From Alphaproteobacteria bacterium (GTDB lineage Bacteria; Pseudomonadota; Alphaproteobacteria; Rs-D84), in assembly GCA_017443235.1 (NCBI GenBank), contig JAFSOV010000018.1, positions 11,180 through 75,179 on the forward strand: DNA of 64,000 nucleotides, in the 5' to 3' direction. Position 1 is the first letter of the stretch; every line of letters begins with the position of its first letter. The position numbers were made by a program, and so were the translations under genes. Under the pieces are notes generated by a model that was not told where the DNA came from, made no database searches, and worked only from the letters and a program-made list of their open reading frames with translations. Below, piece after piece: positions 3,509 through 32,748 of this stretch.

Positions 3509-4651
3509 ATGTCGTACAAAAAATATATAATTTTTGGTCTGTTTTTAGTGTGCGCCGGCATAGTTTATGTTAAATTTGCCGCAAGCAAAAAAACCGGTGA
3601 AATACAGGGCTTATTGGCGGAACCAATTGCTGTAGAAACCAATGCTATGAATTTATCCGTATCAATCATAGCAGAAACAGATAATGACATAATTGTTAAA
3701 GCCTGTGATACCCCATCTGATTGTACAACCAACAAATTATCTAAAATAAGCGAACACAACGGTATAAAAGTATACAGAAGAGGAACCCACGATGTCGCTT
3801 TTGTAAAAGATAACGGCAAATGGAAAACCTTTGGAAATGTTTTTCTTCTGAGTGTAATGGAAAAGATAGAAAAACAACCAAAAGCCATTTTTGCACGTGG
3901 ATGTGGTGATTGGAAAATAGCAGTTATGGAAGAAACAGAAAAAGACATAAAAGTTGAAGATTGTGCCTGGGGAATGGGATGGAGTTGCAGCACCTATAAA
4001 ATACCAAAAGTAAGCGACCAAGACGGCGTTAAAATCTATAAAGAAGACGAAGTCGTGTTCACAAACAACAATGGCAAATGGGGATTAACCGGACACATGT
4101 GCGCAGATAGAAAAATAGAAAGAAAGACAGGCCATATATTTCAAGCCAATTGTATGGACTTTGAAATGTTGATTACTGCAGAAACAGATAACGAAATAAC
4201 GGTTAAACGGGATTTCCGCACAATATACAACATACCGAAAGTAGCAGAGCAAGATGGGGTAAAAGTATACAGTGATGGAAAATTATTATATCACAAAGAC
4301 AGAGAGGCTTTTATAAACAATAATGGTGAATGGGTATTACTTGGACATTTGTGTTCCAAAGTTAGTTCCACCGAAGTTTTAACCCACAAATGTCCAAAAT
4401 ACGGACGCACAATAAAAGTGAACAGTTATGACGCTTATGGATTAATAGTTGTAGAAATACAAGCCCCCCATATTTCATGTGAATCCAAAGACGATGCAAT
4501 ATTTATGTTAAAAGACACATCTATCACAGACAAAGATATCTTTATAAATGGTGATTTTCGTATAGAACACACAAAAAACGATTGGATTATTGATGAAAAA
4601 CTATGCGATATTATCAAGGATTGTTCCACAAATAATTGGCCAGAAATTTAA
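3509..4651 (+). CDS. Exported or membrane-anchored protein with three internal repeats, AT-rich
   Basis: AAGGAG RBS; N-terminal hydrophobic helix; repeats of AET(D/E)xxIxV...K(I/V)xxxxG(I/V)K(I/V)Y...FxxxNGxW. Confidence 0.75.
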   Translation: MSYKKYIIFGLFLVCAGIVYVKFAASKKTGEIQGLLAEPIAVETNAMNLSVSIIAETDNDIIVKACDTPSDCTTNKLSKISEHNGIKVYRRGTHDVAFVKDNGKWKTFGNVFLLSVMEKIEKQPKAIFARGCGDWKIAVMEETEKDIKVEDCAWGMGWSCSTYKIPKVSDQDGVKIYKEDEVVFTNNNGKWGLTGHMCADRKIERKTGHIFQANCMDFEMLITAETDNEITVKRDFRTIYNIPKVAEQDGVKVYSDGKLLYHKDREAFINNNGEWVLLGHLCSKVSSTEVLTHKCPKYGRTIKVNSYDAYGLIVVEIQAPHISCESKDDAIFMLKDTSITDKDIFINGDFRIEHTKNDWIIDEKLCDIIKDCSTNNWPEI

Positions 4652-24462: not shown

Positions 24463-24492
24463 AAACTGCCCGCGAATGCGGGCAGTGTTTTT
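24463..24492. terminator. Probable bidirectional terminator between the two convergent cassette ORFs
   Basis: ACTGCCCGC-GAAT-GCGGGCAGT hairpin with A-rich and T-rich flanks. Confidence 0.75.
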
Positions 24493-25939
24493 AGTTTAGC
24501 AGGTTTATTGCCACCGGCGCTTCTTCCACTTCTTCATCCCATTCTTTACAGACGTTCTTTTTTGTTTTTGTACAATTTTGCGTTGTTTTTAATTTTACAC
24601 ATTCGCCAGTTTCGTATTTTGGAATTGTCACAATCTTTTCTTTGTAATTCCATTGTGCCGACACAGAACAACCTACCACTTTATTTCCATTTGCGTCCGT
24701 CGTATTTTCGCATTTATCAATACTTTCTCCACCACTATCCACCAGATCGTTTGTGGTGGATATTCCAATGCCAGCAGCGGCAGCAACAGAAGCACCGGCA
24801 ATAGAAGCGCCTACAATTCCGGCGGTTGAAAGCGTTGTCACTGTCGCTGTTCCAATTACAGTTGGGACAGCTATCTGGCTTCCAACAGCCATAAGAACTG
24901 GCACACTTACTGTTGAGGCAGCACCAAATGTAAATATTGTTGCCACAACCGCAGCAGCCACCAATAAGCTAAATGCAATCCATTTTCCGGCATTGCTTGT
25001 TTTTGGGGTATCTGTTGCGGGCAAACTGGCCGTGTCACCGTATGCGATACAGATTTCCACTGCTTTCGCCTTTGCATTTTCTTCATCGGCAATTTGGGCG
25101 CCTTTAACTTGATCTTGCATCATACGTTTGATTTCTTCATCATATTTTTCCATATAATTTTCACGCGCATTTTTTAATGCGGAATTAGCAATCATCTGGC
25201 GAATTTGGTTGGTTAAATTTGGGAATCGTGCTTTTGAAGAATCTAACACCGTGTTTGTACCACCTTCTTTAACGGTTCCTAGAATTTCTTTATATCCCTG
25301 AAATTTACGTCCGGTCATACAGTATTGAACAACTTGGTCGGATTCAATGGCATTAATCGCGTTTTCAACCGCAGATGTTAATGCTTTGATTTCTATGCCA
25401 TATACACGATCACGAATTATATCATAAGTTCCATTATCTCTTAATTCTTCTACGGTAACTCCTGTTGCCCTTGCAACATTTTGCACATATGTATCAATAG
25501 GGGTAAAATGAAATTTTGTTTGTATATTATCGGTAGTTTGGTCTTTATCTTCTTCATATGAGATTTCCCCCCAATACAAAATACCAGATAAATCCGCACT
25601 GAATAATTCTGTCTTTATAGCGTCTTTCGAAAAACCTTCAATAGAGTTTTTACAAATAGGCGCACTTAATAGATTAAAACTACCCTCAGAGTCTTTGCCA
25701 TTGGTATATTGGCAAATTCTGTACTCTAAACTTCTTGTTCCGGCGCCGTTGTCAACAACAATGTCGTCACAGTTTTCGGTACTGCCACAGACGCGCAACA
25801 TCGCGGTGTCTAACGCTTTCTGGCATGTTGAAAGCATATTATTATCGATATTCAAGAATATGCCTGTGGCGATTTGTGCAAGGTTTGCACGAATTGTTTC
25901 TGTGTTATTATAGTATACATAATCGTCATTATGCGCCAT
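24491..25939 (-). CDS. Alternative (probably silent) C-terminal cassette for the 21791 protein
   Basis: No signal peptide. Begins inside the dif-like site. First ~57 aa nearly identical to aa ~555-612 of the convergent gene. Carries hydrophobic helices (WIAFSLLVAAAVVATIFTFG; GIVGASIAGASVAAAAGIG). Confidence 0.8.
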   Translation of the reverse strand: MAHNDDYVYYNNTETIRANLAQIATGIFLNIDNNMLSTCQKALDTAMLRVCGSTENCDDIVVDNGAGTRSLEYRICQYTNGKDSEGSFNLLSAPICKNSIEGFSKDAIKTELFSADLSGILYWGEISYEEDKDQTTDNIQTKFHFTPIDTYVQNVARATGVTVEELRDNGTYDIIRDRVYGIEIKALTSAVENAINAIESDQVVQYCMTGRKFQGYKEILGTVKEGGTNTVLDSSKARFPNLTNQIRQMIANSALKNARENYMEKYDEEIKRMMQDQVKGAQIADEENAKAKAVEICIAYGDTASLPATDTPKTSNAGKWIAFSLLVAAAVVATIFTFGAASTVSVPVLMAVGSQIAVPTVIGTATVTTLSTAGIVGASIAGASVAAAAGIGISTTNDLVDSGGESIDKCENTTDANGNKVVGCSVSAQWNYKEKIVTIPKYETGECVKLKTTQNCTKTKKNVCKEWDEEVEEAPVAINLLN

Positions 25940-25942
25940 TAA
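25764..25942 (-). repeat. Inverted repeat, right copy
   Basis: Reverse complement matches 23451-23628. Confidence 0.95.
25912..25939 (-). other. dif/XerCD-like recombination site B
   Basis: Minus strand ATGGCGCATAA-TGACGA-TTATGTATACT; 8/11 and 8/11 match to E. coli dif arms; same 6-bp core as site A. Confidence 0.7.
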
Positions 25943-26418
25943 TTCCCCTTCAGCTCTGCTGAAGGGGGGGACCGCGGGACGCGGTGGGGTAGTTGCAAGT
26001 TCTCCTCCACCGGAGGAGTACGGCCCAGCGGGCCGGGAGGTGGGGGTCTCTGTCGCGCCGCAGCCTTGGCGCTTGCATCACGAAGTTTTAACGAAGTGGC
26101 GCAGGCGGACCTGTCCACCGAAGCGCAACGCGCGAAGGCGGATGGGGGCATAAAAAATGATGCTTTTGTGATTTTTACCCCCACCCCGTCGCCGTTCGGC
26201 GCCACCCCTCCGATTATCACCCACAAAATTTTTTCAAATTTTGTGGGGCCCGATGGAGGGGAACTTTCACCCCACCCCTCCGTGAATCACCCAAAAAATG
26301 CTGTGCATTTTTCGGGGACCGATGGAGGGGAACTAAAAACGCGGGGCATTTGCCCCGCGCACTAATAACTACCCCACCACCGCTGGTGGTCCCCCCCTTC
26401 GGTATCCGAAGGGGAATT
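25942..26418. repeat. Cluster of palindromic REP-like elements from several families, partly nested
   Basis: TCCCCTTC-N-GAAGGGGGGGACC-N-GGTGGGGTAG at 25943-25992 and inverted at 26368-26417; CCCCTCC..GGAGGGG variants and CCGAAG..GAAGGCGGA-type units between them. Confidence 0.85.
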
Positions 26419-26423
26419 ATCAC

Positions 26424-26993
26424 TTACTTTCCTGTGGCGCGACGTTTTACCGCAACGGTCTTTTTTGCCGCCGTGGCTTTTTTTGCCGCCGGTTCCTTTG
26501 TTGCGACTTTTTTTGCTGTCGCTTTTTCGGCCTTTAGCGCCTTTTCTACTTTCTTGGCATCGGTGGCAACCGCTTCGTCGGTCTTGGCCGCCGCAACTTC
26601 TGCCTTTGGTGCCGCCTTTTTCGCGTTCACGTCACGATCAACAAATTCGATAATCGCCATAGGCGCCGCATCACCATAACGGAAACCGGCCTTTAACACG
26701 CGGGTATATCCCCCCGGACGTTTGGCATAGCGCGGTCCCAACACCGTGAACAACTTTTTTACGGTCGCCGCAGACGCGTTGCCCAATTCAGACGCAACCA
26801 ACCGGCGATTGGCGACGGTATCAACCTTGGCACGGGTAACCAATTTTTCTACGACACTGCGCAGATCTTTGGCCTTTGGCAGGGTTGTTTTAATTTGTTC
26901 TTTTTCAATCAAGTTTTTCGCCAGACCAATAAACAAGGCCTTGCGTGCATTTGTATCGCGATTAAATGTGCGACCTGCTAATCTGTGTCTCAT
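26424..26993 (-). CDS. rplQ: 50S ribosomal protein L17 with Ala/Lys-rich C-terminal extension
   Basis: MRHR..., [30 protein letters not shown]. Confidence 0.97.
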
Positions 26994-27262
26994 TGATTAC
27001 TCCTTTATTTTGTTTCCGCCCTGCCCCAACAACCGGGGTGGGATTCGACCAGATTTCGTGCCCCGGGGCGCGCCCCAGCAACACGCGTTTTTCTCTCTAC
27101 CCAAACTCCTTGCATATGCGCAAGAAAATGATTTTGACAATCCCTTGCGGTGGTGCACAAGAAAATTGTCAGAACGCGTCAGTTGGAAGGGTTTGACGGT
27201 TCGCGGTGTAGTAGCCCTACATAAGAACCGGCAAACCCAACAATGGGCGCGTTATCACAATT

Positions 27263-28291
27263 TTATTTATAGGGGTCTTCATACTTCTTGGCCAACTCCG
27301 CAATATTTTCTGGTGGCCAACCCGGAACTTCCATCCCCAGGCCCAGGCCCATTGCTTCCAGTTGGATTTTAATTTCGTTCAACGATTTGCGTCCAAAGTT
27401 CGGGGTCTTTAACATATCGGCCTCGGTCTTTTGGACCAATTCGCCCAACCAATTGATTTTGTCGTTTTTCAAACAGTTGTTTGCACGAACAGACAATTCC
27501 AATTCATCAACACGTTTCAACAACTTTGGATCGAATTGCAACGCGTCTTTGGCGGCCTCTTCTTCGGTCGGCGCACTGATTTGTGCCGGATCTTCAAAGT
27601 TGATGAACACGGTCAATTGATCGGTCAAAATGCGTGCCGCAAATGCGATTGCGTCTTCGGGCGTGACACTGCCATTTGTTTTGACGGTCAATTCCAATTT
27701 ATCATAATCGGTCGATTGGCCAACACGCGTTTCCGAAACATTCGACGCCACATTCAAAATCGGCGAGAAAATCGAGTCAACCGGAATCACACCCAACGGC
27801 AAACCGTCGGCATGCGCGGTCGCCGGAACATAACCACGACCCGTACCCAGTGTGATTTCCATATCGAATTGTGCGCCCTTGTCCAATGTGCAAATTTCTG
27901 CATCCGGATTCATAATTTCAATTGCAGACGACGTTTCAATCATACCCGCCTTGACAACCGCAGGCCCCGTCACGTGCAACGATGCCTTGTGCTGGCCTTC
28001 GCTGTTTGCCTTGAAATAAACCCCTTTCAGGTTCAGCAAGATATCGGCAACGTCTTCATGAACGCCCTGGATACTGGAAAATTCGTGTTGAACACCGTCA
28101 ATTTTTACATACAACGGCGCGCATCCCTGCAGCGACGATAGCAACACGCGACGCAGCGCGGTCCCGAGTGTCAAACCGAAACCCTTTTCCAACGGTTCCG
28201 CGACCAATGTCGCCATATTCGGATTGTGTTCATCGGCTGTGATATTCAGTTTTTTTGGCTTGATTAAAGTCATCCAATTTTTTTCAATCAT
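27263..28291 (-). CDS. rpoA: RNA polymerase alpha subunit
   Basis: [41 protein letters not shown]. Confidence 0.98.
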
Positions 28292-28361: not shown

Positions 28362-28390
28362 ATTTTATAGCGTTTTTTCCGAAAAGTCAA
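28362..28390 (-). promoter_or_regulatory. Sigma70-type promoter for rpoA
   Basis: TTGACT-17 bp-TAAAAT on the minus strand. Confidence 0.65.
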
Positions 28391-28396
28391 GCATAA

Positions 28397-28675
28397 TCCC
28401 CTTCACATTCCCGGGCCCCGAAAAATACGAAAGTATTTTTTGGGTGGGTTTGAAGTGGGGGACACGGTGGGGTAGTAAGTCCCCTTCACATTGTGAAGGG
28501 GGGGACCGGCGGAGCCGGTGGGGTAGTAAGTCCCCTTCACATTGTGAAGGGGGGGACCGCGGGACGCGGTGGGGTAGAACCGGGCGCGTATGCGCACCCG
28601 TGCAAAGCACGGGGCAACTACCCCCCGGCACGCTGTGCCGTACCCCTTCTTAATAAGAAGGGGAATTCGCGACGG
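28397..28675. repeat. REP-like cluster: three direct copies and one inverted copy
   Basis: TCCCCTTCACATTGTGAAGGGGGGGACC..GGTGGGGTAG at ~28397 (interrupted), 28479 and 28530; inverted copy at 28617-28665. Confidence 0.9.
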
Positions 28676-28686
28676 TCATGAAAAAT

Positions 28687-29058
28687 TTATTTATCATATC
28701 GTGCCGGAACAGAACCGCAAAAATTACGAACAATTTGCAATACACCCAACATATCTTGTTTAACGTCTTTATCATATATATGCAAAACACGCAACCCCAA
28801 AGAACGCAAGTAATTATCACGCCGTGCATCGTATTCATACTTATTATTATGCGTAGAACCATCTATTTCTATCACAACATTCAATCGCGCACAGAAAAAA
28901 TCGACTATATAATTTCCGATAACTTTTTGACGATAAAAATCCAATCCATCAAGTTTTTTATTTTTTACTTCGTTCCAAAACAGAATTTCAGACAGCGTAG
29001 AATTTTTACGCAACCAACGTGCACGCTCGGTTAAAGATTTATTCATCGGTAATGACAT
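28687..29058 (-). CDS. DUF559 / Vsr-like (PD-(D/E)XK) endonuclease domain protein
   Basis: RAR.LRKNST..E..W, FYRQKVIGNYIVDF, VIEIDGSTH, D.RRD.YL..LG.RVL. Confidence 0.9.
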   Translation of the reverse strand: MSLPMNKSLTERARWLRKNSTLSEILFWNEVKNKKLDGLDFYRQKVIGNYIVDFFCARLNVVIEIDGSTHNNKYEYDARRDNYLRSLGLRVLHIYDKDVKQDMLGVLQIVRNFCGSVPARYDK

Positions 29059-29107
29059 ACCGGAATAATAATAAAATTTCTATCAAAAGCAAATATTCCA
29101 GATAACA

Positions 29108-29254
29108 AAGTCCCCTTCACATCGTGAAGGGGGGGACCGCGGGACGCGGTGGGGTAGAACCGGGCGCGTATGCGCCGTCGCCATGGGCGACAACAACTAC
29201 CCCGCCACCGCTGGTGGCCCTCCCCTTCTTTATAAGAAGGGGACTTCGCGACGG
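29108..29254. repeat. REP-like doublet, direct repeat of 28528-28675
   Basis: AAGTCCCCTTCACAT.GTGAAGGGGGGGACCGCGGGACGCGGTGGGGTAGAACCGGGCGCGTATGCGC...AACTACCCC...CCCCTTCTT.ATAAGAAGGGGA.TTCGCGACGG in both copies. Confidence 0.9.
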
Positions 29255-29276
29255 AAATAATTATGAAAGAAAAAAC

Positions 29277-30008
29277 TTAATATCGCCCCCACCGCGCCTG
29301 GGCATTCTGTCTATCAAAATCCGATTTTGCGCCCCTAATTTTTAATTGCAAATTTTTGACACACGACTGTATGTCCGTTTTATTCATACTACTTACCCTG
29401 GATTTACTGCAAACCGCCTCCAAACAATTAGTGTTCGTTCCACACATATCATAGCCTTTCATAATCGCCAAATCATTATCTAACTGTTTTCTGGCATTGG
29501 TTATATCTTTTTCTGCGGCTGATGAAATTTTAGATAAATTCCGTGCCACACAATCATAGGCGTTTTCTTGACTTACCGCATAGCAATCTTCGGCATTCGC
29601 CAATCCATTGTTGTTATACGAACCGGATGCACCGCCGCCGGAATTGCCGGATGCGGAATTACCGGTCAGGACCTCGATTTTACTGGTCAAGACGGCCTTT
29701 TCTAACTGGGTTTTGAAACGTTTAATAATGGCGTTCAGCGCATCATATTGTTCTTTTAACTGTTGCGCGATTACGGTAGATTTCAACGCAATAACTTCAT
29801 TCATATATGCAATATCTTCCGCATTTGTCGGATTTGCCGGCAAACCATCAGCCTTAAACGCTACATTATGCGCATGCGTTGAGCACAATGCAAAAGCCGG
29901 ATTGAATACAGCACATTCTGCATCAACCGTAGTAGCATGCGCAACAACCGGCGTCCAAAACATTAACACTCCAAATATAACAGCAAAAATTTTTCCCTTA
30001 TATTCCAC
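29277..30008 (-). CDS. Cys-containing exported helical protein
   Basis: GTG start after GGGG; signal peptide ending AHA; coiled-coil segments. Confidence 0.75.
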   Translation of the reverse strand: MEYKGKIFAVIFGVLMFWTPVVAHATTVDAECAVFNPAFALCSTHAHNVAFKADGLPANPTNAEDIAYMNEVIALKSTVIAQQLKEQYDALNAIIKRFKTQLEKAVLTSKIEVLTGNSASGNSGGGASGSYNNNGLANAEDCYAVSQENAYDCVARNLSKISSAAEKDITNARKQLDNDLAIMKGYDMCGTNTNCLEAVCSKSRVSSMNKTDIQSCVKNLQLKIRGAKSDFDRQNAQARWGRY

Positions 30009-31887
30009 TAATACCCCCGCTAATATTTATAATGTCTTTGACATTTTTTTGGAAAAATGAATTTGATGATTCAATATCAACCTGACATTTCGGCGTTGCG
30101 TAAATATCCCATTTACATCCATCCTTACACAAACTAGGAATCGTGATGTTATAACACTTCACCTCTGCGACCGCGGAATTTCTAAGCATTTCCGCTTCTT
30201 CCTCACCAATATTAGAACCAACTTTGTTTGATATAAATGTATTCGCCCATGTTTGCCCAGTAGTAATTTTAGTATCAAACTTAGGTAATTCAATATTTGT
30301 ACCCTCAATATCAGGCAACCTGTCTTCATTCGTATAACATAACACATCCGTCGCCGTACCATTGCTTGAAGTTTTGGTCGGCAATTTGCGCGAATCTACC
30401 GTTCGGGCCAATATATCGTATTGTGGCGACCCTTGGGTGACCGCACATCTGTCCAACCAACATGCCTTTTCTGGTTTGCCATCCAAAACAAATTTACCGC
30501 CATCCATTTTACCACGACACGACCGCGAATCTTGGTTTACCAACCGGCGCAGGTTATCGATATCCAACGTTGCCTCTTTCTTCATTCCACGGAACAACGA
30601 TATATCCATAATAACATCGGATGCACATGCAACCTGGGTCGAACCGGTCATACCCGTATTCGCATCAATCCATTCGCGCCATACGGTATCTTTTTCCGTT
30701 AATGTATCAACCAAACGACAATGCGGTTGATTTTTTGATACTTTACCCGTCGCATCATCTGTTTTAACACGATAATAACAACCTTCATCATTTTTTGTAT
30801 CATTACATACACAATCAGCATCTTTTTTCGGATTGCATGCACTGCACATATATTTACCCCAAATGTTGCAAGAATTAGACAACAACATTATCACGTCGTT
30901 GACATCTATACCCAATGTCATGGCCAACATCAACGCGTCATAGACGTTTTCCACCACGTTTTCATACGGGTCAAAGAATTCATTTGCCAAATCTTTGAAT
31001 TTTTTCACGCGCTTTGGCCCCGTGCAGTTCGTCGCCGACGAGTCACAGCCCGCATATTCCAAAACCGCATCTAATTTAGTTTTCAAATCTTTCATTGCGG
31101 TCATTGCGTCTTCAATCGCGGTTTCGATTTTACCGCCCATTTGTTCGCGTACCAAAATATCGGCACTGATTCCGTTTTTCGCCGCCAATTGTTCCGCGAC
31201 ACCTAACCCCTCCAGTCCCGCAATCACCGCCCCCGTATCACCGGTCGATTGTGCTGCGGACACGTTTGCCATAGAATTGCGTTGTTCCGCCAATGCGCTT
31301 TGAATCTGGGCATTTTGCGATTCGGTCTGTGCCGCCATTTGTTGTTGCATTGCGGACATAGATTCCGCCATTTGTTCCTGCATTGCCGCCATTTGCGCCT
31401 GCATCTGTTGCATCTGGGCATTGCTTTGCGCCGCGGCGGCGGCGGATGCATCGGCCTGGGCCTGCGCCTGGGCCTGGGCGATTGCAACGGCATTTGCCTG
31501 CTCTTGGACCTTGGACGTAGATTGCGCAACAATTTGCGCGGTTATATATTCAATTAAATCGTCACCGTGTTTCTTGCACGAATTATTCGAATTCACGCAA
31601 CCCGCAACAATAGAACGCGCAACCGATACATCGGTACAGCCCGAACCACACTTTGGCGATGCACACCGCAAAATCACGGCGTTACAATTGCCAAAATTCG
31701 CCTCGGCCGCGGTCTGCGACATTCCGCCACGTCCGGTCATCAAAGTGTTCCATTGATTGTTGTTCGTTGAACCCGTACCGTGATATGCGGTCAAATTAGA
31801 CCCCGCCGTTGTGGCAACATTCGCCACCGCCGGCGTAATAAACGCGGCACACAAAACACCACACAAGAATTTCAAAGAAAAATTCAT
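29998..31887 (-). CDS. Cys-rich exported protein with Gln/Ala/Met-rich coiled coil
   Basis: Start moved to MNFSLKF (31887); signal peptide ending AVA; AQAQAQ...QMQQMQ segment; many Cys. Confidence 0.8.
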   Translation of the reverse strand: MNFSLKFLCGVLCAAFITPAVANVATTAGSNLTAYHGTGSTNNNQWNTLMTGRGGMSQTAAEANFGNCNAVILRCASPKCGSGCTDVSVARSIVAGCVNSNNSCKKHGDDLIEYITAQIVAQSTSKVQEQANAVAIAQAQAQAQADASAAAAAQSNAQMQQMQAQMAAMQEQMAESMSAMQQQMAAQTESQNAQIQSALAEQRNSMANVSAAQSTGDTGAVIAGLEGLGVAEQLAAKNGISADILVREQMGGKIETAIEDAMTAMKDLKTKLDAVLEYAGCDSSATNCTGPKRVKKFKDLANEFFDPYENVVENVYDALMLAMTLGIDVNDVIMLLSNSCNIWGKYMCSACNPKKDADCVCNDTKNDEGCYYRVKTDDATGKVSKNQPHCRLVDTLTEKDTVWREWIDANTGMTGSTQVACASDVIMDISLFRGMKKEATLDIDNLRRLVNQDSRSCRGKMDGGKFVLDGKPEKACWLDRCAVTQGSPQYDILARTVDSRKLPTKTSSNGTATDVLCYTNEDRLPDIEGTNIELPKFDTKITTGQTWANTFISNKVGSNIGEEEAEMLRNSAVAEVKCYNITIPSLCKDGCKWDIYATPKCQVDIESSNSFFQKNVKDIINISGGISGI

Positions 31888-32012
31888 CTCTCTTCTGTCT
31901 TTTGATTTTAACATAAAACACCGATGAATAAAAGAAAAATTTTTCATCAAACACAAAAAAACGCGGGGCATTTGCCCCGCGCACGAATCAAATCACACAA
32001 TCTATTAAAAAA

Positions 32013-32333
32013 TTAATAGTTGCAGCGGTTGCATGTGTTGCGAACAACACGGCGTTCTGCATATGTGCCCGCCGGTTCATACACAGTCACCGGACGATAG
32101 ACTTGGTAATGGTCAATCACTTCGGTGTGTGTTTTAACGCGAACAGGTTGTGCACAAGAATTGCATGTCGCAACCGGGGCAGAGACACGCGCAACCGGTG
32201 CCGCATATTCTGTTGTGTTGTAACGAACGCGGTTTGTGTATGTTTCTGTTTCGCTGTACAGACCACCATCAGATGCATTAGCAGCAACAGAGACCATCGC
32301 AGCAAACAAAGAAGTTAAAATTGTTTTTTTCAT
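32013..32333 (-). CDS. Small exported hypothetical protein
   Basis: MKKTILTSLFAAMVSVAANA signal peptide. Confidence 0.75.
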   Translation of the reverse strand: MKKTILTSLFAAMVSVAANASDGGLYSETETYTNRVRYNTTEYAAPVARVSAPVATCNSCAQPVRVKTHTEVIDHYQVYRPVTVYEPAGTYAERRVVRNTCNRCNY

Positions 32334-32450
32334 ATTTGACCCTTTTGGTTATTCGTCAATATTATAGGACACAAAAATTCGTTGTCAAGTTTATTTGACA
32401 AATTTTTTTATTGGTGCTTTTTGGATCAAAAATCAACATTTACCAAATTA

Positions 32451-32684
32451 TTATTTCGTGTTTGGGCGCCCCATATGAAACAATTTTGCAGAATCTATCT
32501 GCGAAATGGTGTCCATTGCCTTTTCGGTCGCGGCCCGCTTTCTGTCTGCACGGTCCATGCGACATCCCCGCACAAGCATCAAACCAACCAAACCTAAATA
32601 AATCGCCAGAATTATTAAAGCAGCGCGAGGATTACTGGGCATTTTTTCTGGGTCAAAATCCCCGCATTCACCACTTGGCAACAT
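32451..32684 (-). CDS. Small hypothetical membrane protein
   Basis: AAGGAG RBS before MLPSGE; one TM helix. Confidence 0.5.
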   Translation of the reverse strand: MLPSGECGDFDPEKMPSNPRAALIILAIYLGLVGLMLVRGCRMDRADRKRAATEKAMDTISQIDSAKLFHMGRPNTK

Positions 32685-32748
32685 TTTCACTCCTTTTTTA
32701 CAGTTACACAACCAACAAAAAAGTCCGTCAAAAAGACGGACCAATCAA

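What the first reader, a model, noticed from the sequence alone, without database searches (positions are those of the whole stretch)
28397..29254. DUF559 endonuclease gene bracketed by REPIN-like doublets: a REP-associated unit without a RAYT transposase
Seen: the gene is flanked by ~147-bp direct repeats (28528-28675 and 29108-29254). Each is an inverted pair of a double-hairpin unit TCCCCTTC-N-GAAGGGG(GGG)ACC-N-GGTGGGGTAG. Extra tandem copies lie to the left and dispersed copies at 25943 and 26368. Stems vary with compensatory changes. Established: REP/REPIN families cluster around their HUH-type RAYT transposase, whereas DUF559 is a Vsr-like PD-(D/E)XK nuclease of unclear role. Inference: this nuclease may mobilise or maintain the repeat family, or move as a repeat-flanked cassette.
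Basis: partly seen in the sequence, partly recalled or inferred. Interest (0 to 1): 0.72.

Follow-up and report, generated by a model that had tools for sequence, protein, structure and literature searches.

The report
Nuclease gene cassette with hairpin-triplex repeats
A small, intact DNA-cutting enzyme gene of unknown role sits among copies of a folded GC-rich repeat that is scattered through this tiny gut-bacterial genome, and the same gene-plus-repeat pairing recurs in many relatives, which points to a partnership like the known REP/RAYT one but with a different kind of enzyme.

Summary
An intact DUF559 (Vsr-like PD-(D/E)XK) ORF at 28687-29058(-) lies between two ~140-bp inverted doublets of a ~50-nt double-hairpin unit, with extra tandem and dispersed units. 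The genome (985 kb, 94% complete) holds 38 full units. All 3 of its DUF559 genes are unit-flanked on both sides, against 0.076% of random segments. No RAYT, DDE or TnpB transposase was found.

In congeners, 35 of 39 DUF559 places have inverted units on both sides. Unit sequence type follows the nuclease tree exactly, although the cassettes sit at unrelated sites, some in frame inside genes. Gene-less doublets occupy the same site as a full cassette in another species. Closest relatives have the rpoA-upstream site empty.

The unit is a pyrimidine/purine hairpin, a variable second hairpin, and a G-rich tail that mirrors the purine arm. This is the design of BoxC/PIT intrastrand-triplex repeats, for which the one paper I read (Holder et al. 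2015) names no partner enzyme.

Best reading: a nuclease-plus-repeat cassette with miniature derivatives. That the nuclease acts on the repeats is inferred, not shown. Some genomes carry units but no DUF559.

This scan has noted the same pairing before on other DNA, including queA of this genome.

The parts
28687..29058 (-). DUF559 / Vsr-like PD-(D/E)XK nuclease ORF, 123 aa, intact
   Evidence: Pfam PF04480, E 1.7e-30. Matches PDB 3HRL at E 2.3e-15. D53, E64, D66, H70 and D77 are invariant in 39 of 39 relatives. dN/dS is 0.09 against the paralogue on contig C8.
29059..29107 (-). Conserved 5' leader of the gene, running up to the outer end of the right doublet
   Evidence: Aligns with the leader of the C8 paralogue within one 520-bp, 82% identical alignment.
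28668..28686 (-). Conserved 3' flank between the stop codon and the left doublet
   Evidence: Homologous at C8. Also repeated after the right doublet and after a doublet at C18:43109.
28528..28667 (+). Left doublet: forward unit 28528-28577, two small spacer hairpins, reverse unit 28618-28667
   Evidence: The single strand folds at -49.5 kcal/mol, z -8.2.
29108..29246 (+). Right doublet: forward unit 29108-29157, two small spacer hairpins, reverse unit 29197-29246
   Evidence: The forward half matches the left doublet at 67/68.
29247..29290 (-). Second copy of the DUF559 3' flank. It includes the last two codons and the stop of ORF 29277-30008. Read as a remnant of a neighbouring cassette copy (inference).
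   Evidence: BLASTN match to the 3' end and flank of the C8 gene; alignment.
28477..28526 (+). Extra forward unit in tandem
28394..28475 (+). Forward unit whose first hairpin is interrupted by a nested ~40-bp palindromic element (about 28410-28449)
   Evidence: inverted pairs I9/I10. The same nesting is seen in other contigs.
25941..25992 (+). Dispersed forward unit abutting the start of ORF 24491-25939. Together with 26369-26418 it encloses the whole intergenic region.
26369..26418 (-). Dispersed unit in reverse orientation, ending 5 bp before the rplQ stop codon
25997..26047 (+). Unit of another sequence type, with the same hairpin, hairpin, mirrored G-rich tail design
   Evidence: Read. The same element is at C18:43150 and upstream of the DUF559 gene in L005.
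26181..26335 (-). Two units of the CCCCTCC type, each with a nested palindromic element in hairpin 1
   Evidence: (families D5 and D7).
28362..28390 (-). Promoter-like site for rpoA, directly downstream of the repeat cluster. It marks the conserved edge of the insertion.
   Evidence: TTGACT, 17 nt, TAAAAT. The site is conserved in relatives that lack the cassette.

Best explanation
The region is a member, in a rearranged form, of a widespread family of nuclease-plus-repeat cassettes.

The core is a small intact DUF559 nuclease gene (Vsr-like PD-(D/E)XK fold). The repeats are ~50-nt units with four parts: a pyrimidine arm and a purine arm that form hairpin 1; a second hairpin of free sequence; and a G-rich tail that mirrors the purine arm. 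On one strand this can fold as hairpins, and in principle as a purine-motif intrastrand triplex (BoxC/PIT design).

In most relatives the gene sits between two inverted units with the tails facing the gene. Doublets (unit, short spacer, unit) and solo units are gene-less copies.

Here the gene, with its leader and 3' flank, is followed by a doublet. A remnant of a second such copy lies next to it, which gives doublet-gene-doublet.

Shown:
- The association of gene and repeats.
- Co-diversification of gene and units.
- Presence at unrelated sites.
- Gene-less derivatives at a shared site.
- Purifying selection on the nuclease.

Inferred: the nuclease recognises the folded ends and nicks there. 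The breaks are then repaired by host recombination, which copies, homogenises or deletes units. This is a RAYT-like maintenance role, carried out by a hydrolytic nuclease.
For: 1. In the own genome, 3 of 3 DUF559 genes have units within 130 bp on both sides, against 0.076% of 200,000 random 372-bp segments.

2. In a sample of the genus, 35 of 39 DUF559 places have units on both sides, 3 on one side, and 1 could not be assessed (judged by eye).

3. Five unit sequence types map onto the nuclease tree with 5 changes, the minimum possible. The shuffled mean is 22.4, and 0 of 200 shuffles are as low. The cassettes lie at unrelated sites: the serS, alaS and smpB 3' ends, three positions in frame in queA, and upstream of rpoA.

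4. The alaS 3' end holds a full cassette in G101 and a gene-less doublet in G000, with the same duplicated host segment. A doublet at C14 keeps the AT-rich inner flank of a cassette.

5. The site is empty in close relatives G062 and G055 (rpoA N-terminus 97% identical).

6. The mirrored tail lies on the gene side in 42 of 77 flanking hairpins with an asymmetric purine arm. The controls are 2 on the far side, 9 direct copies, and 0.9 expected in shuffled tails.

7. dN/dS is 0.04-0.09, and the catalytic-type residues are invariant.

8. No Y1/RAYT, rve, DDE_Tnp_1 or TnpB was found in the genome.

9. The duplicated host segments flanking the serS-site cassettes match 41/41 (L023) and about 37/40 (L022) within a genome but differ between species. 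The cassette ORFs look vertically inherited (75-81% nt identity, against 82-87% for serS). This implies ongoing conversion at the ends.

10. Across 29 assessable loci of the class Alphaproteobacteria, 19 have strong inverted repeats hugging the domain. E. coli ycjD has BoxC-type units at its 3' end.
Against: - No cleavage, excision or insertion event was observed. Laid metagenome contigs gave only ambiguous joints inside repeats.
- Genome-level co-occurrence is loose. G020 (96% complete) has 13 hairpin-1 hits and 4 full units but no DUF559. G057 has 13 type I units but only type II nuclease genes. G018 and G015 are similar.
- Co-diversification would also arise from simple linkage.
- In this window the outer ends of the units, not the inner ends, face the gene.
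- A hydrolytic PD-(D/E)XK nuclease cannot perform strand transfer by itself.
- Only 2 of 36 assessable unit clusters in G000 have long flanking duplications, so there is no uniform insertion signature.
- The two window-type paralogues are old (dS 0.86). This is not the behaviour of an actively jumping element.
Confidence: 0.58

Rival explanations
1. Landing-pad (homing) model. The units and doublets spread by some other means. DUF559 is a free-standing homing-type nuclease gene that cuts intact doublets and is copied into them by repair. On this reading the repeats are its targets, not its cargo.
For: - The usual architecture is a doublet with the gene in place of the spacer.
- Several genomes have many units but no DUF559.
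- Vsr-fold homing endonucleases exist: I-Bth0305I (PMC3239194, passages read). DUF559 is grouped with them in PMC3424549 (passage of Table 1 read).
- There is a weak PADLOC homing-endonuclease match (E 0.0011).
Against: - No other mobilising enzyme was found for the units.
- In the window, at C8 and in G012 the gene lies outside the doublets.
- The protein is 123 aa, with no separate DNA-binding domain of the kind I-Bth0305I has (PMC3239194).
- No cleavage data exist.
Confidence: 0.2
2. The hairpin units serve the cassette rather than the enzyme. They act as insulating, terminating or in-frame linker modules that let the gene sit in operons and inside ORFs. The nuclease acts on other DNA.
For: - Many cassettes lie in frame in long ORFs (354-756 aa frames).
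- Units often abut terminators.
- One unit scores as terminator-like.
Against: - This does not explain about 38 dispersed gene-less units, nor the conserved mirrored tail always on the gene side.
- As summarised in the introduction of PMC4666352 (passage read), earlier work found no promoter or terminator activity for BoxC/PIT elements.
Confidence: 0.1
3. Housekeeping Vsr-type mismatch-repair nuclease that merely lies in repeat-rich intergenic DNA (chance or hotspot neighbourhood).
For: - A Caulobacter DUF559 protein was interpreted as a very-short-patch repair enzyme tied to a cytosine methyltransferase (PMC12907096, one passage read).
- The rpsK-rpoA interval is a variable hotspot.
Against: - No C5 cytosine methyltransferase (PF00145) was found in the genome.
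- DUF559 is patchy, found in 46 of 121 congeners.
- The chance of two-sided flanking is 0.076% per gene.
- The same pairing holds at unrelated sites and with co-varying unit types.
Confidence: 0.05

Closest known systems
REP/REPIN repeats with their RAYT (REP-associated tyrosine transposase)
   Same: - A dispersed palindromic repeat occurring as singlets and inverted doublets.
- A single or few-copy nuclease gene itself flanked by the repeats.
- The gene is under purifying selection and is largely vertically inherited.
- Stems show compensatory variation.
   Different: - The enzyme is a hydrolytic PD-(D/E)XK (Vsr-like) nuclease, not an HUH Y1 transposase. No Y1_Tnp is found in the genome.
- The unit has two hairpins plus a 3' G-rich tail, not a 5' GTAG- or CGTC-tagged single palindrome (PMC3733652, abstract and two sections read).
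- Cassettes also occur in frame inside genes.
BoxC / PIT / TM_ECO intrastrand-triplex repeats (Holder et al. 2015, PMC4666352)
   Same: - The strand order is pyrimidine arm, purine arm, then a reverse-Hoogsteen-compatible mirrored G-rich tail (class II purine motif).
- The repeats are G/C-rich, dispersed and tied to variable loci.
- E. coli ycjD (DUF559) has such units at its 3' end.
   Different: - The second loop here holds a 15-25-nt hairpin, instead of the 3-nt second loop (T-T-A or C-C-G) described for TM_ECO. The 1-6-nt limit is that paper's search setting.
- Triplex folding of these units is untested.
- The paper's main text does not mention ycjD or any endonuclease (0 occurrences).
EDxHD / Vsr-like homing endonucleases (I-Bth0305I, PMC3239194)
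   Same: - Same nuclease clade in the classification of PMC3424549.
- A selfish-gene lifestyle, including residence inside host genes.
   Different: - No NUMOD/HTH DNA-binding region.
- Not in an intron or intein.
- Carries its own inverted structured repeats and has miniature gene-less derivatives.
MITEs and their autonomous parent elements
   Same: - Terminal inverted repeats around a gene.
- Internally deleted gene-less copies.
- Occasional flanking target duplications.
   Different: - No known transposase family is involved.
- The duplications are long (18-57 bp) and are seen only at some insertions.

Membership tests
DUF559 (Pfam PF04480) | Profile match above the curated cut-off | tested here: met
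   105.5 bits against a cut-off of 20.6. NCBIfam PRK09767 scores 71 bits, below its equivalog cut-off of 218.
DUF559 (Pfam PF04480) | Conserved acidic and histidine residues of the Vsr-type active site | tested here: met
   D53, E64, D66, H70 and D77 are invariant in 39 of 39 sequences. Their assignment to catalytic roles is by analogy with Vsr and I-Bth0305I (PMC3239194).
REP/REPIN-RAYT system | A Y1 HUH transposase (RAYT) gene in the genome, flanked by the repeats | tested here: not met
   No PF01797 match in the 94%-complete genome.
REP/REPIN-RAYT system | A 20-40-bp single palindrome with an unpaired GTAG or CGTC tag at one end | tested here: not met
   The units are about 50 nt with two hairpins. 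The GTAG-like letters are part of a G-rich tail 3' of the hairpins (definition from PMC3733652). That a REP tag lies 5' of the palindrome is recalled, not read.
REP/REPIN-RAYT system | Inverted doublets dispersed in intergenic DNA, with the nuclease gene itself flanked by them | tested here: met
BoxC/PIT/TM_ECO class II triplex motif | Order of pyrimidine arm, purine arm, reverse-Hoogsteen domain on one strand, with G*G:C, A*A:T and T*A:T triplets allowed | tested here: met
   The purine arm GAAGGGG is mirrored by the tail GGGGTAG, and GGAGGGG by GGGGAGG. An exact mirrored tail occurs in 42 of 77 hairpins, against 0.9 expected. Definition from PMC4666352.
BoxC/PIT/TM_ECO class II triplex motif | Short loops (1-6 nt in the published search) | tested here: not met
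   Loop 2 carries a 15-25-nt hairpin.
BoxC/PIT/TM_ECO class II triplex motif | Triplex formation demonstrated (CD, NMR or footprint) | not testable with these tools
   Only hairpin folding could be computed.
EDxHD homing endonucleases | N-terminal NUMOD/HTH DNA-binding region plus a Vsr-like catalytic domain | tested here: not met
   The 123-aa protein has only the DUF559 domain. There is a weak PADLOC homing-endonuclease match to the catalytic part only.
Vsr very-short-patch repair | A cognate C5 cytosine methyltransferase in the genome | tested here: not met
   No PF00145 match.
Classical transposon with MITE derivatives | A known transposase family encoded in the element or the genome | tested here: not met
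   No PF01797, PF00665, PF01609 or PF07282 match. The five tyrosine recombinases are not adjacent to units.
Classical transposon with MITE derivatives | Uniform target-site duplication | tested here: inconclusive
   Duplications of 18-57 bp flank 6 cassettes in relatives and 2 doublets in G000. The other 34 of 36 assessable clusters in G000 show none.

The most novel reading that the evidence does not exclude
DUF559 proteins are structure-specific nucleases whose natural substrate is the folded (hairpin or triplex) form of BoxC/PIT-type repeats. Together, the enzyme and the repeats form a widespread, undescribed class of mobile cassette, seen here across Alphaproteobacteria and beside E. coli ycjD. 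This class would have its own miniature derivatives, could insert in frame into essential genes, and would keep its flanks recombinogenic. It would give a long-orphan repeat family its partner enzyme, and a large domain of unknown function its role.
Probability: 0.4. Interest if true: 0.85.

Novelty: new variant of a known kind. Interest (0 to 1): 0.7.

Why it matters
DUF559 is a very common bacterial domain. It was found in 82 of 301 sampled alphaproteobacterial genomes and has no established role. According to the introduction of Holder et al. 2015, BoxC/PIT repeats have been known since the 1990s; that paper names no enzyme for them.

A specific, co-evolving pairing of the two makes both questions directly testable, with one purified 123-aa protein and a few oligonucleotides.

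The pairing would also explain a source of local genome instability, and of in-frame insertions in essential genes, in small-genome gut bacteria.

Tried and rejected
1. RAYT or other transposases as the mobiliser: none found. The five tyrosine recombinases are not next to units.

2. Known RNA families: no Rfam match to the units at E up to 1.

3. A universal long target duplication: rejected. Only 2 of 36 assessable clusters in G000 show one.

4. Recent independent insertion as the reason for the identical duplicated host segments at serS: rejected. The cassette ORFs diverge in step with serS, so concerted evolution is the more likely cause.

5. Excision or empty-site variants in public metagenome runs: the joints found lie inside repeats that fit two places, or have short sides, so nothing can be concluded.

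6. Mirror-tail test with one mismatch allowed: it did not discriminate (51 mirrored against 41 direct copies of 84). It was replaced by the exact test.

7. Defence-system membership: only weak PADLOC matches.

8. Genome-level co-occurrence as proof: it is loose.

9. Literature:
- The DUF559 search returned 25 papers, 22 listed, none with the term in title or abstract.
- Searches for REPIN/RAYT/endonuclease/Vsr, Vsr/homing endonuclease/palindromic and MITE/restriction endonuclease-like gave no title or abstract describing this pairing.
- PMC9881135 lists DUF559 proteins as 14-fold enriched among predicted inversion targets (one table passage read).

10. One folding script was not run; see the field kept for the operators.

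Full report
**What is in the window.** The window is part of contig C15 of a 985-kb, 18-contig genome that is 94% complete. Earlier notes of this scan name the organism Candidatus Enterousia, a small-genome gut alphaproteobacterium; I did not test the name.

The flagged stretch lies between the rpoA promoter and a cysteine-rich ORF. It sits inside a 4.4-kb variable insertion that separates rpsK from rpoA.

ORF 28687-29058(-) is a clear DUF559 protein: Pfam E 1.7e-30, and closest solved structure 3HRL at E 2.3e-15. It is flanked by two ~140-bp doublets at 28528-28667 and 29108-29246. Each doublet consists of a forward ~50-nt unit, two small hairpins, and a reverse unit.

To the left lie one more forward unit (28477-28526) and a unit interrupted by a nested ~40-bp palindrome (28394-28475). 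A further forward and reverse pair (25941-25992 and 26369-26418) encloses the whole rplQ-downstream intergenic region.

It extends about 40 bp further than stated, into a second copy of the gene's 3' flank (29247-29290).

**More than chance.**
- The hairpin-1 pattern occurs 7 times in the window, against 0 expected, and 39 times in the genome.
- The genome holds 38 full units, 35 of them distinct.
- 34 of the 35 distinct units keep both hairpins, with 16 different stem sequences in hairpin 2, so compensatory change is confirmed.
- All three have units within 130 bp on both sides. Only 0.076% of 200,000 random 372-bp segments do.

**Relatives.**
- Pfam DUF559 is found in 46 of 121 sampled genomes of the genus. 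Many copies lie in open frames of 354-756 aa.
- At 39 distinct DUF559 places (38 in the genus, 1 in another genus of the order), I saw units on both sides at 35, on one side at 3, and could not assess 1 that lies at a contig end (judged by eye).
- The usual form is forward unit, gene, reverse unit, with the G-rich tails facing the gene and only about 6-20 bp between tail and ORF. This is a doublet with the gene in place of the spacer.
- Five sequence types of unit follow the nuclease tree with the minimum number of changes: 5, against a shuffled mean of 22.4, with 0 of 200 shuffles as low. I assigned the labels by eye, and relatives share labels by descent.
- Because the cassettes sit at unrelated sites, gene and units have moved together.
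- In a class-wide sample, DUF559 occurs in 82 of 301 genomes. This tally includes one genome, G375, flagged as unpublished; no locus of it was read.
- Of the 29 assessable best loci in that sample, 19 have strong inverted repeats hugging the domain and 10 do not.
- E. coli K-12 ycjD has units of the same design at and beyond its 3' end, with a ~45-bp duplication of the gene's 3' end.

**Gene-less copies and empty sites.**
- In G101 a full cassette sits at the 3' end of an alaS-like gene, flanked by a 53-bp duplication of the host gene's end. In G000 the same site, with the same duplication boundaries, holds a gene-less doublet.
- A doublet at C14 keeps the AT-rich inner flank of a cassette and has an 18-22-bp flanking duplication.
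- At C18:43109-43148 a doublet is followed by the 3' flank and the leader of the window-type gene, with the ORF missing.
- For the window site itself, two close relatives (G062 and G055; rpoA N-terminus 97% identical) have the cysteine-rich gene followed by a terminator and the rpoA promoter. They carry neither units of this family nor DUF559 there (G055 has an unrelated palindrome); G057 (96%) also lacks both but has a different upstream gene.
- Long flanking duplications are not general. Only 2 of 36 assessable unit clusters in G000 have one.

**What the unit is.** Earlier notes of this scan pointed to BoxC/PIT/TM_ECO triplex repeats and to Holder et al. 2015. I read that paper's abstract and passages.

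[quoted passage not shown] The units here fit this order. In type I the purine arm GAAGGGG is mirrored by the tail GGGGTAG. In type II GGAGGGG is mirrored by GGGGAGG.

I tested 77 hairpins with an asymmetric purine arm that flank DUF559 domains in my loci:
- 42 have an exact mirrored tail within 50 nt on the gene side.
- 2 have one on the far side.
- 9 have a direct copy instead.
- 0.9 would be expected in shuffled tails.

The difference from published BoxC is that the second loop here carries a whole hairpin. Triplex folding itself was not tested. The paper's main text has no occurrence of "ycjD" or "endonuclease".

**State of the gene.**
- The nuclease is under strong purifying selection, with dN/dS 0.04-0.09.
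- D53, E64, D66, H70 and D77 are invariant in 39 of 39 sequences.
- The two window-type paralogues are old (dS 0.86). The C8 copy is orthologous in G095.
- The three serS-site cassettes diverge in step with serS: ORF 75-81% identity, against 82-87% for serS.
- Yet their duplicated host segments are identical or nearly so within a genome (41/41 in L023; about 37/40 in L022) and differ between species. This argues for continuing conversion at the cassette ends.

**Enzymes that could compete for the role.** The genome has no Y1/RAYT, rve, DDE_Tnp_1 or TnpB match. It has five tyrosine recombinases away from the units. It has no C5 cytosine methyltransferase that a Vsr-type repair role would need.

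**Against the main reading.**
- Several congeners have units but no DUF559, or only a nuclease of another type: G020, G057, G018 and G015.
- Linkage alone can produce co-diversification.
- In the window, at C8 and in G012 the gene lies outside the doublets.
- No event of cleavage or movement was observed.
- In laid metagenome contigs the joints were ambiguous. One run has a cassette contig 98.7% identical to the window and an rpoA contig about 90% identical, at equal depth. This hints at exchange but does not link the contigs.

The best-supported description is a DUF559 nuclease cassette with BoxC-like hairpin/triplex ends and gene-less miniature copies, present here in a rearranged tandem form. 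That the nuclease acts on the units is the most likely mechanism, but it is inferred. The main rival is that the units are its landing pads.

I found no paper describing the pairing. The searches were made; the library does not hold most subscription journals. PMC9881135 lists DUF559 proteins as enriched among predicted inversion targets, which fits the flanking inverted repeats.

Noticed in passing
window 28410-28449, 26215-26250, 26285-26320; also G000 contigs C3, C4, C5, C6, C7, C14, C18: A second ~40-bp palindromic element with an A/T-rich centre and G/C ends lies nested inside hairpin 1 of units: in two of the three window copies here, a third beside an imperfect hairpin 1, and at least 9 more in other contigs. 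It is either a unit subfamily or an element that targets these hairpins.
   Followed up: partly
window 29277-32744: Between rpsK and rpoA lies a 4.4-kb block of cysteine-rich, signal-peptide-like ORFs with no Pfam family. The content of this interval differs among congeners.
   Followed up: partly
L003 (G019 contig C2) 1-300 and 640-900; G019 contig C31 around 26480-26820: Tandem arrays with period 148 bp, made of one unit plus the first ~100 nt of the DUF559 gene. A second array has period 72 bp and consists of hairpin 1 plus 51 bp.
   Followed up: no
L111 (E. coli K-12 NC_000913) 4200-4440: ycjD ends inside a BoxC-type unit, followed by a ~45-bp duplicate of its own 3' end and a second, inverted unit.
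   Followed up: partly
G000 C18:43109-43148: A doublet is followed by the 3' flank and the leader of the window-type DUF559 gene, with the ORF cleanly absent. This is either a deletion remnant or an unfilled site.
   Followed up: no
L022, L023, L026, L029; G000 C13:87190-87420 and C6:27760-27860: Duplicated host 3' ends flanking cassettes are identical within a genome but diverged between species (concerted evolution). G000 keeps a remnant second copy of the serS end without a cassette.
   Followed up: partly
G000 C18:42780-42960 and C5:36850-37050: A conserved ~190-nt non-coding element lies next to a small HTH-like ORF.
   Followed up: no
window 27154-27273: A long palindrome between rplQ and rpoA gives weak, meaningless Rfam hits on both strands.
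   Followed up: no
G000 C8:4385-4460, C5:36730-36795; L002 1270-1300: Short arrays of a GTGGTTAGTG-like word around a GC hairpin lie directly after stop codons and next to units.
   Followed up: no
window 28562-29155 in run X6: A metagenome contig carries the cassette at 98.7% identity, while the rpoA contig of equal depth in the same run is about 90% identical to the window. This is a possible sign of recent exchange of the cassette.
   Followed up: no
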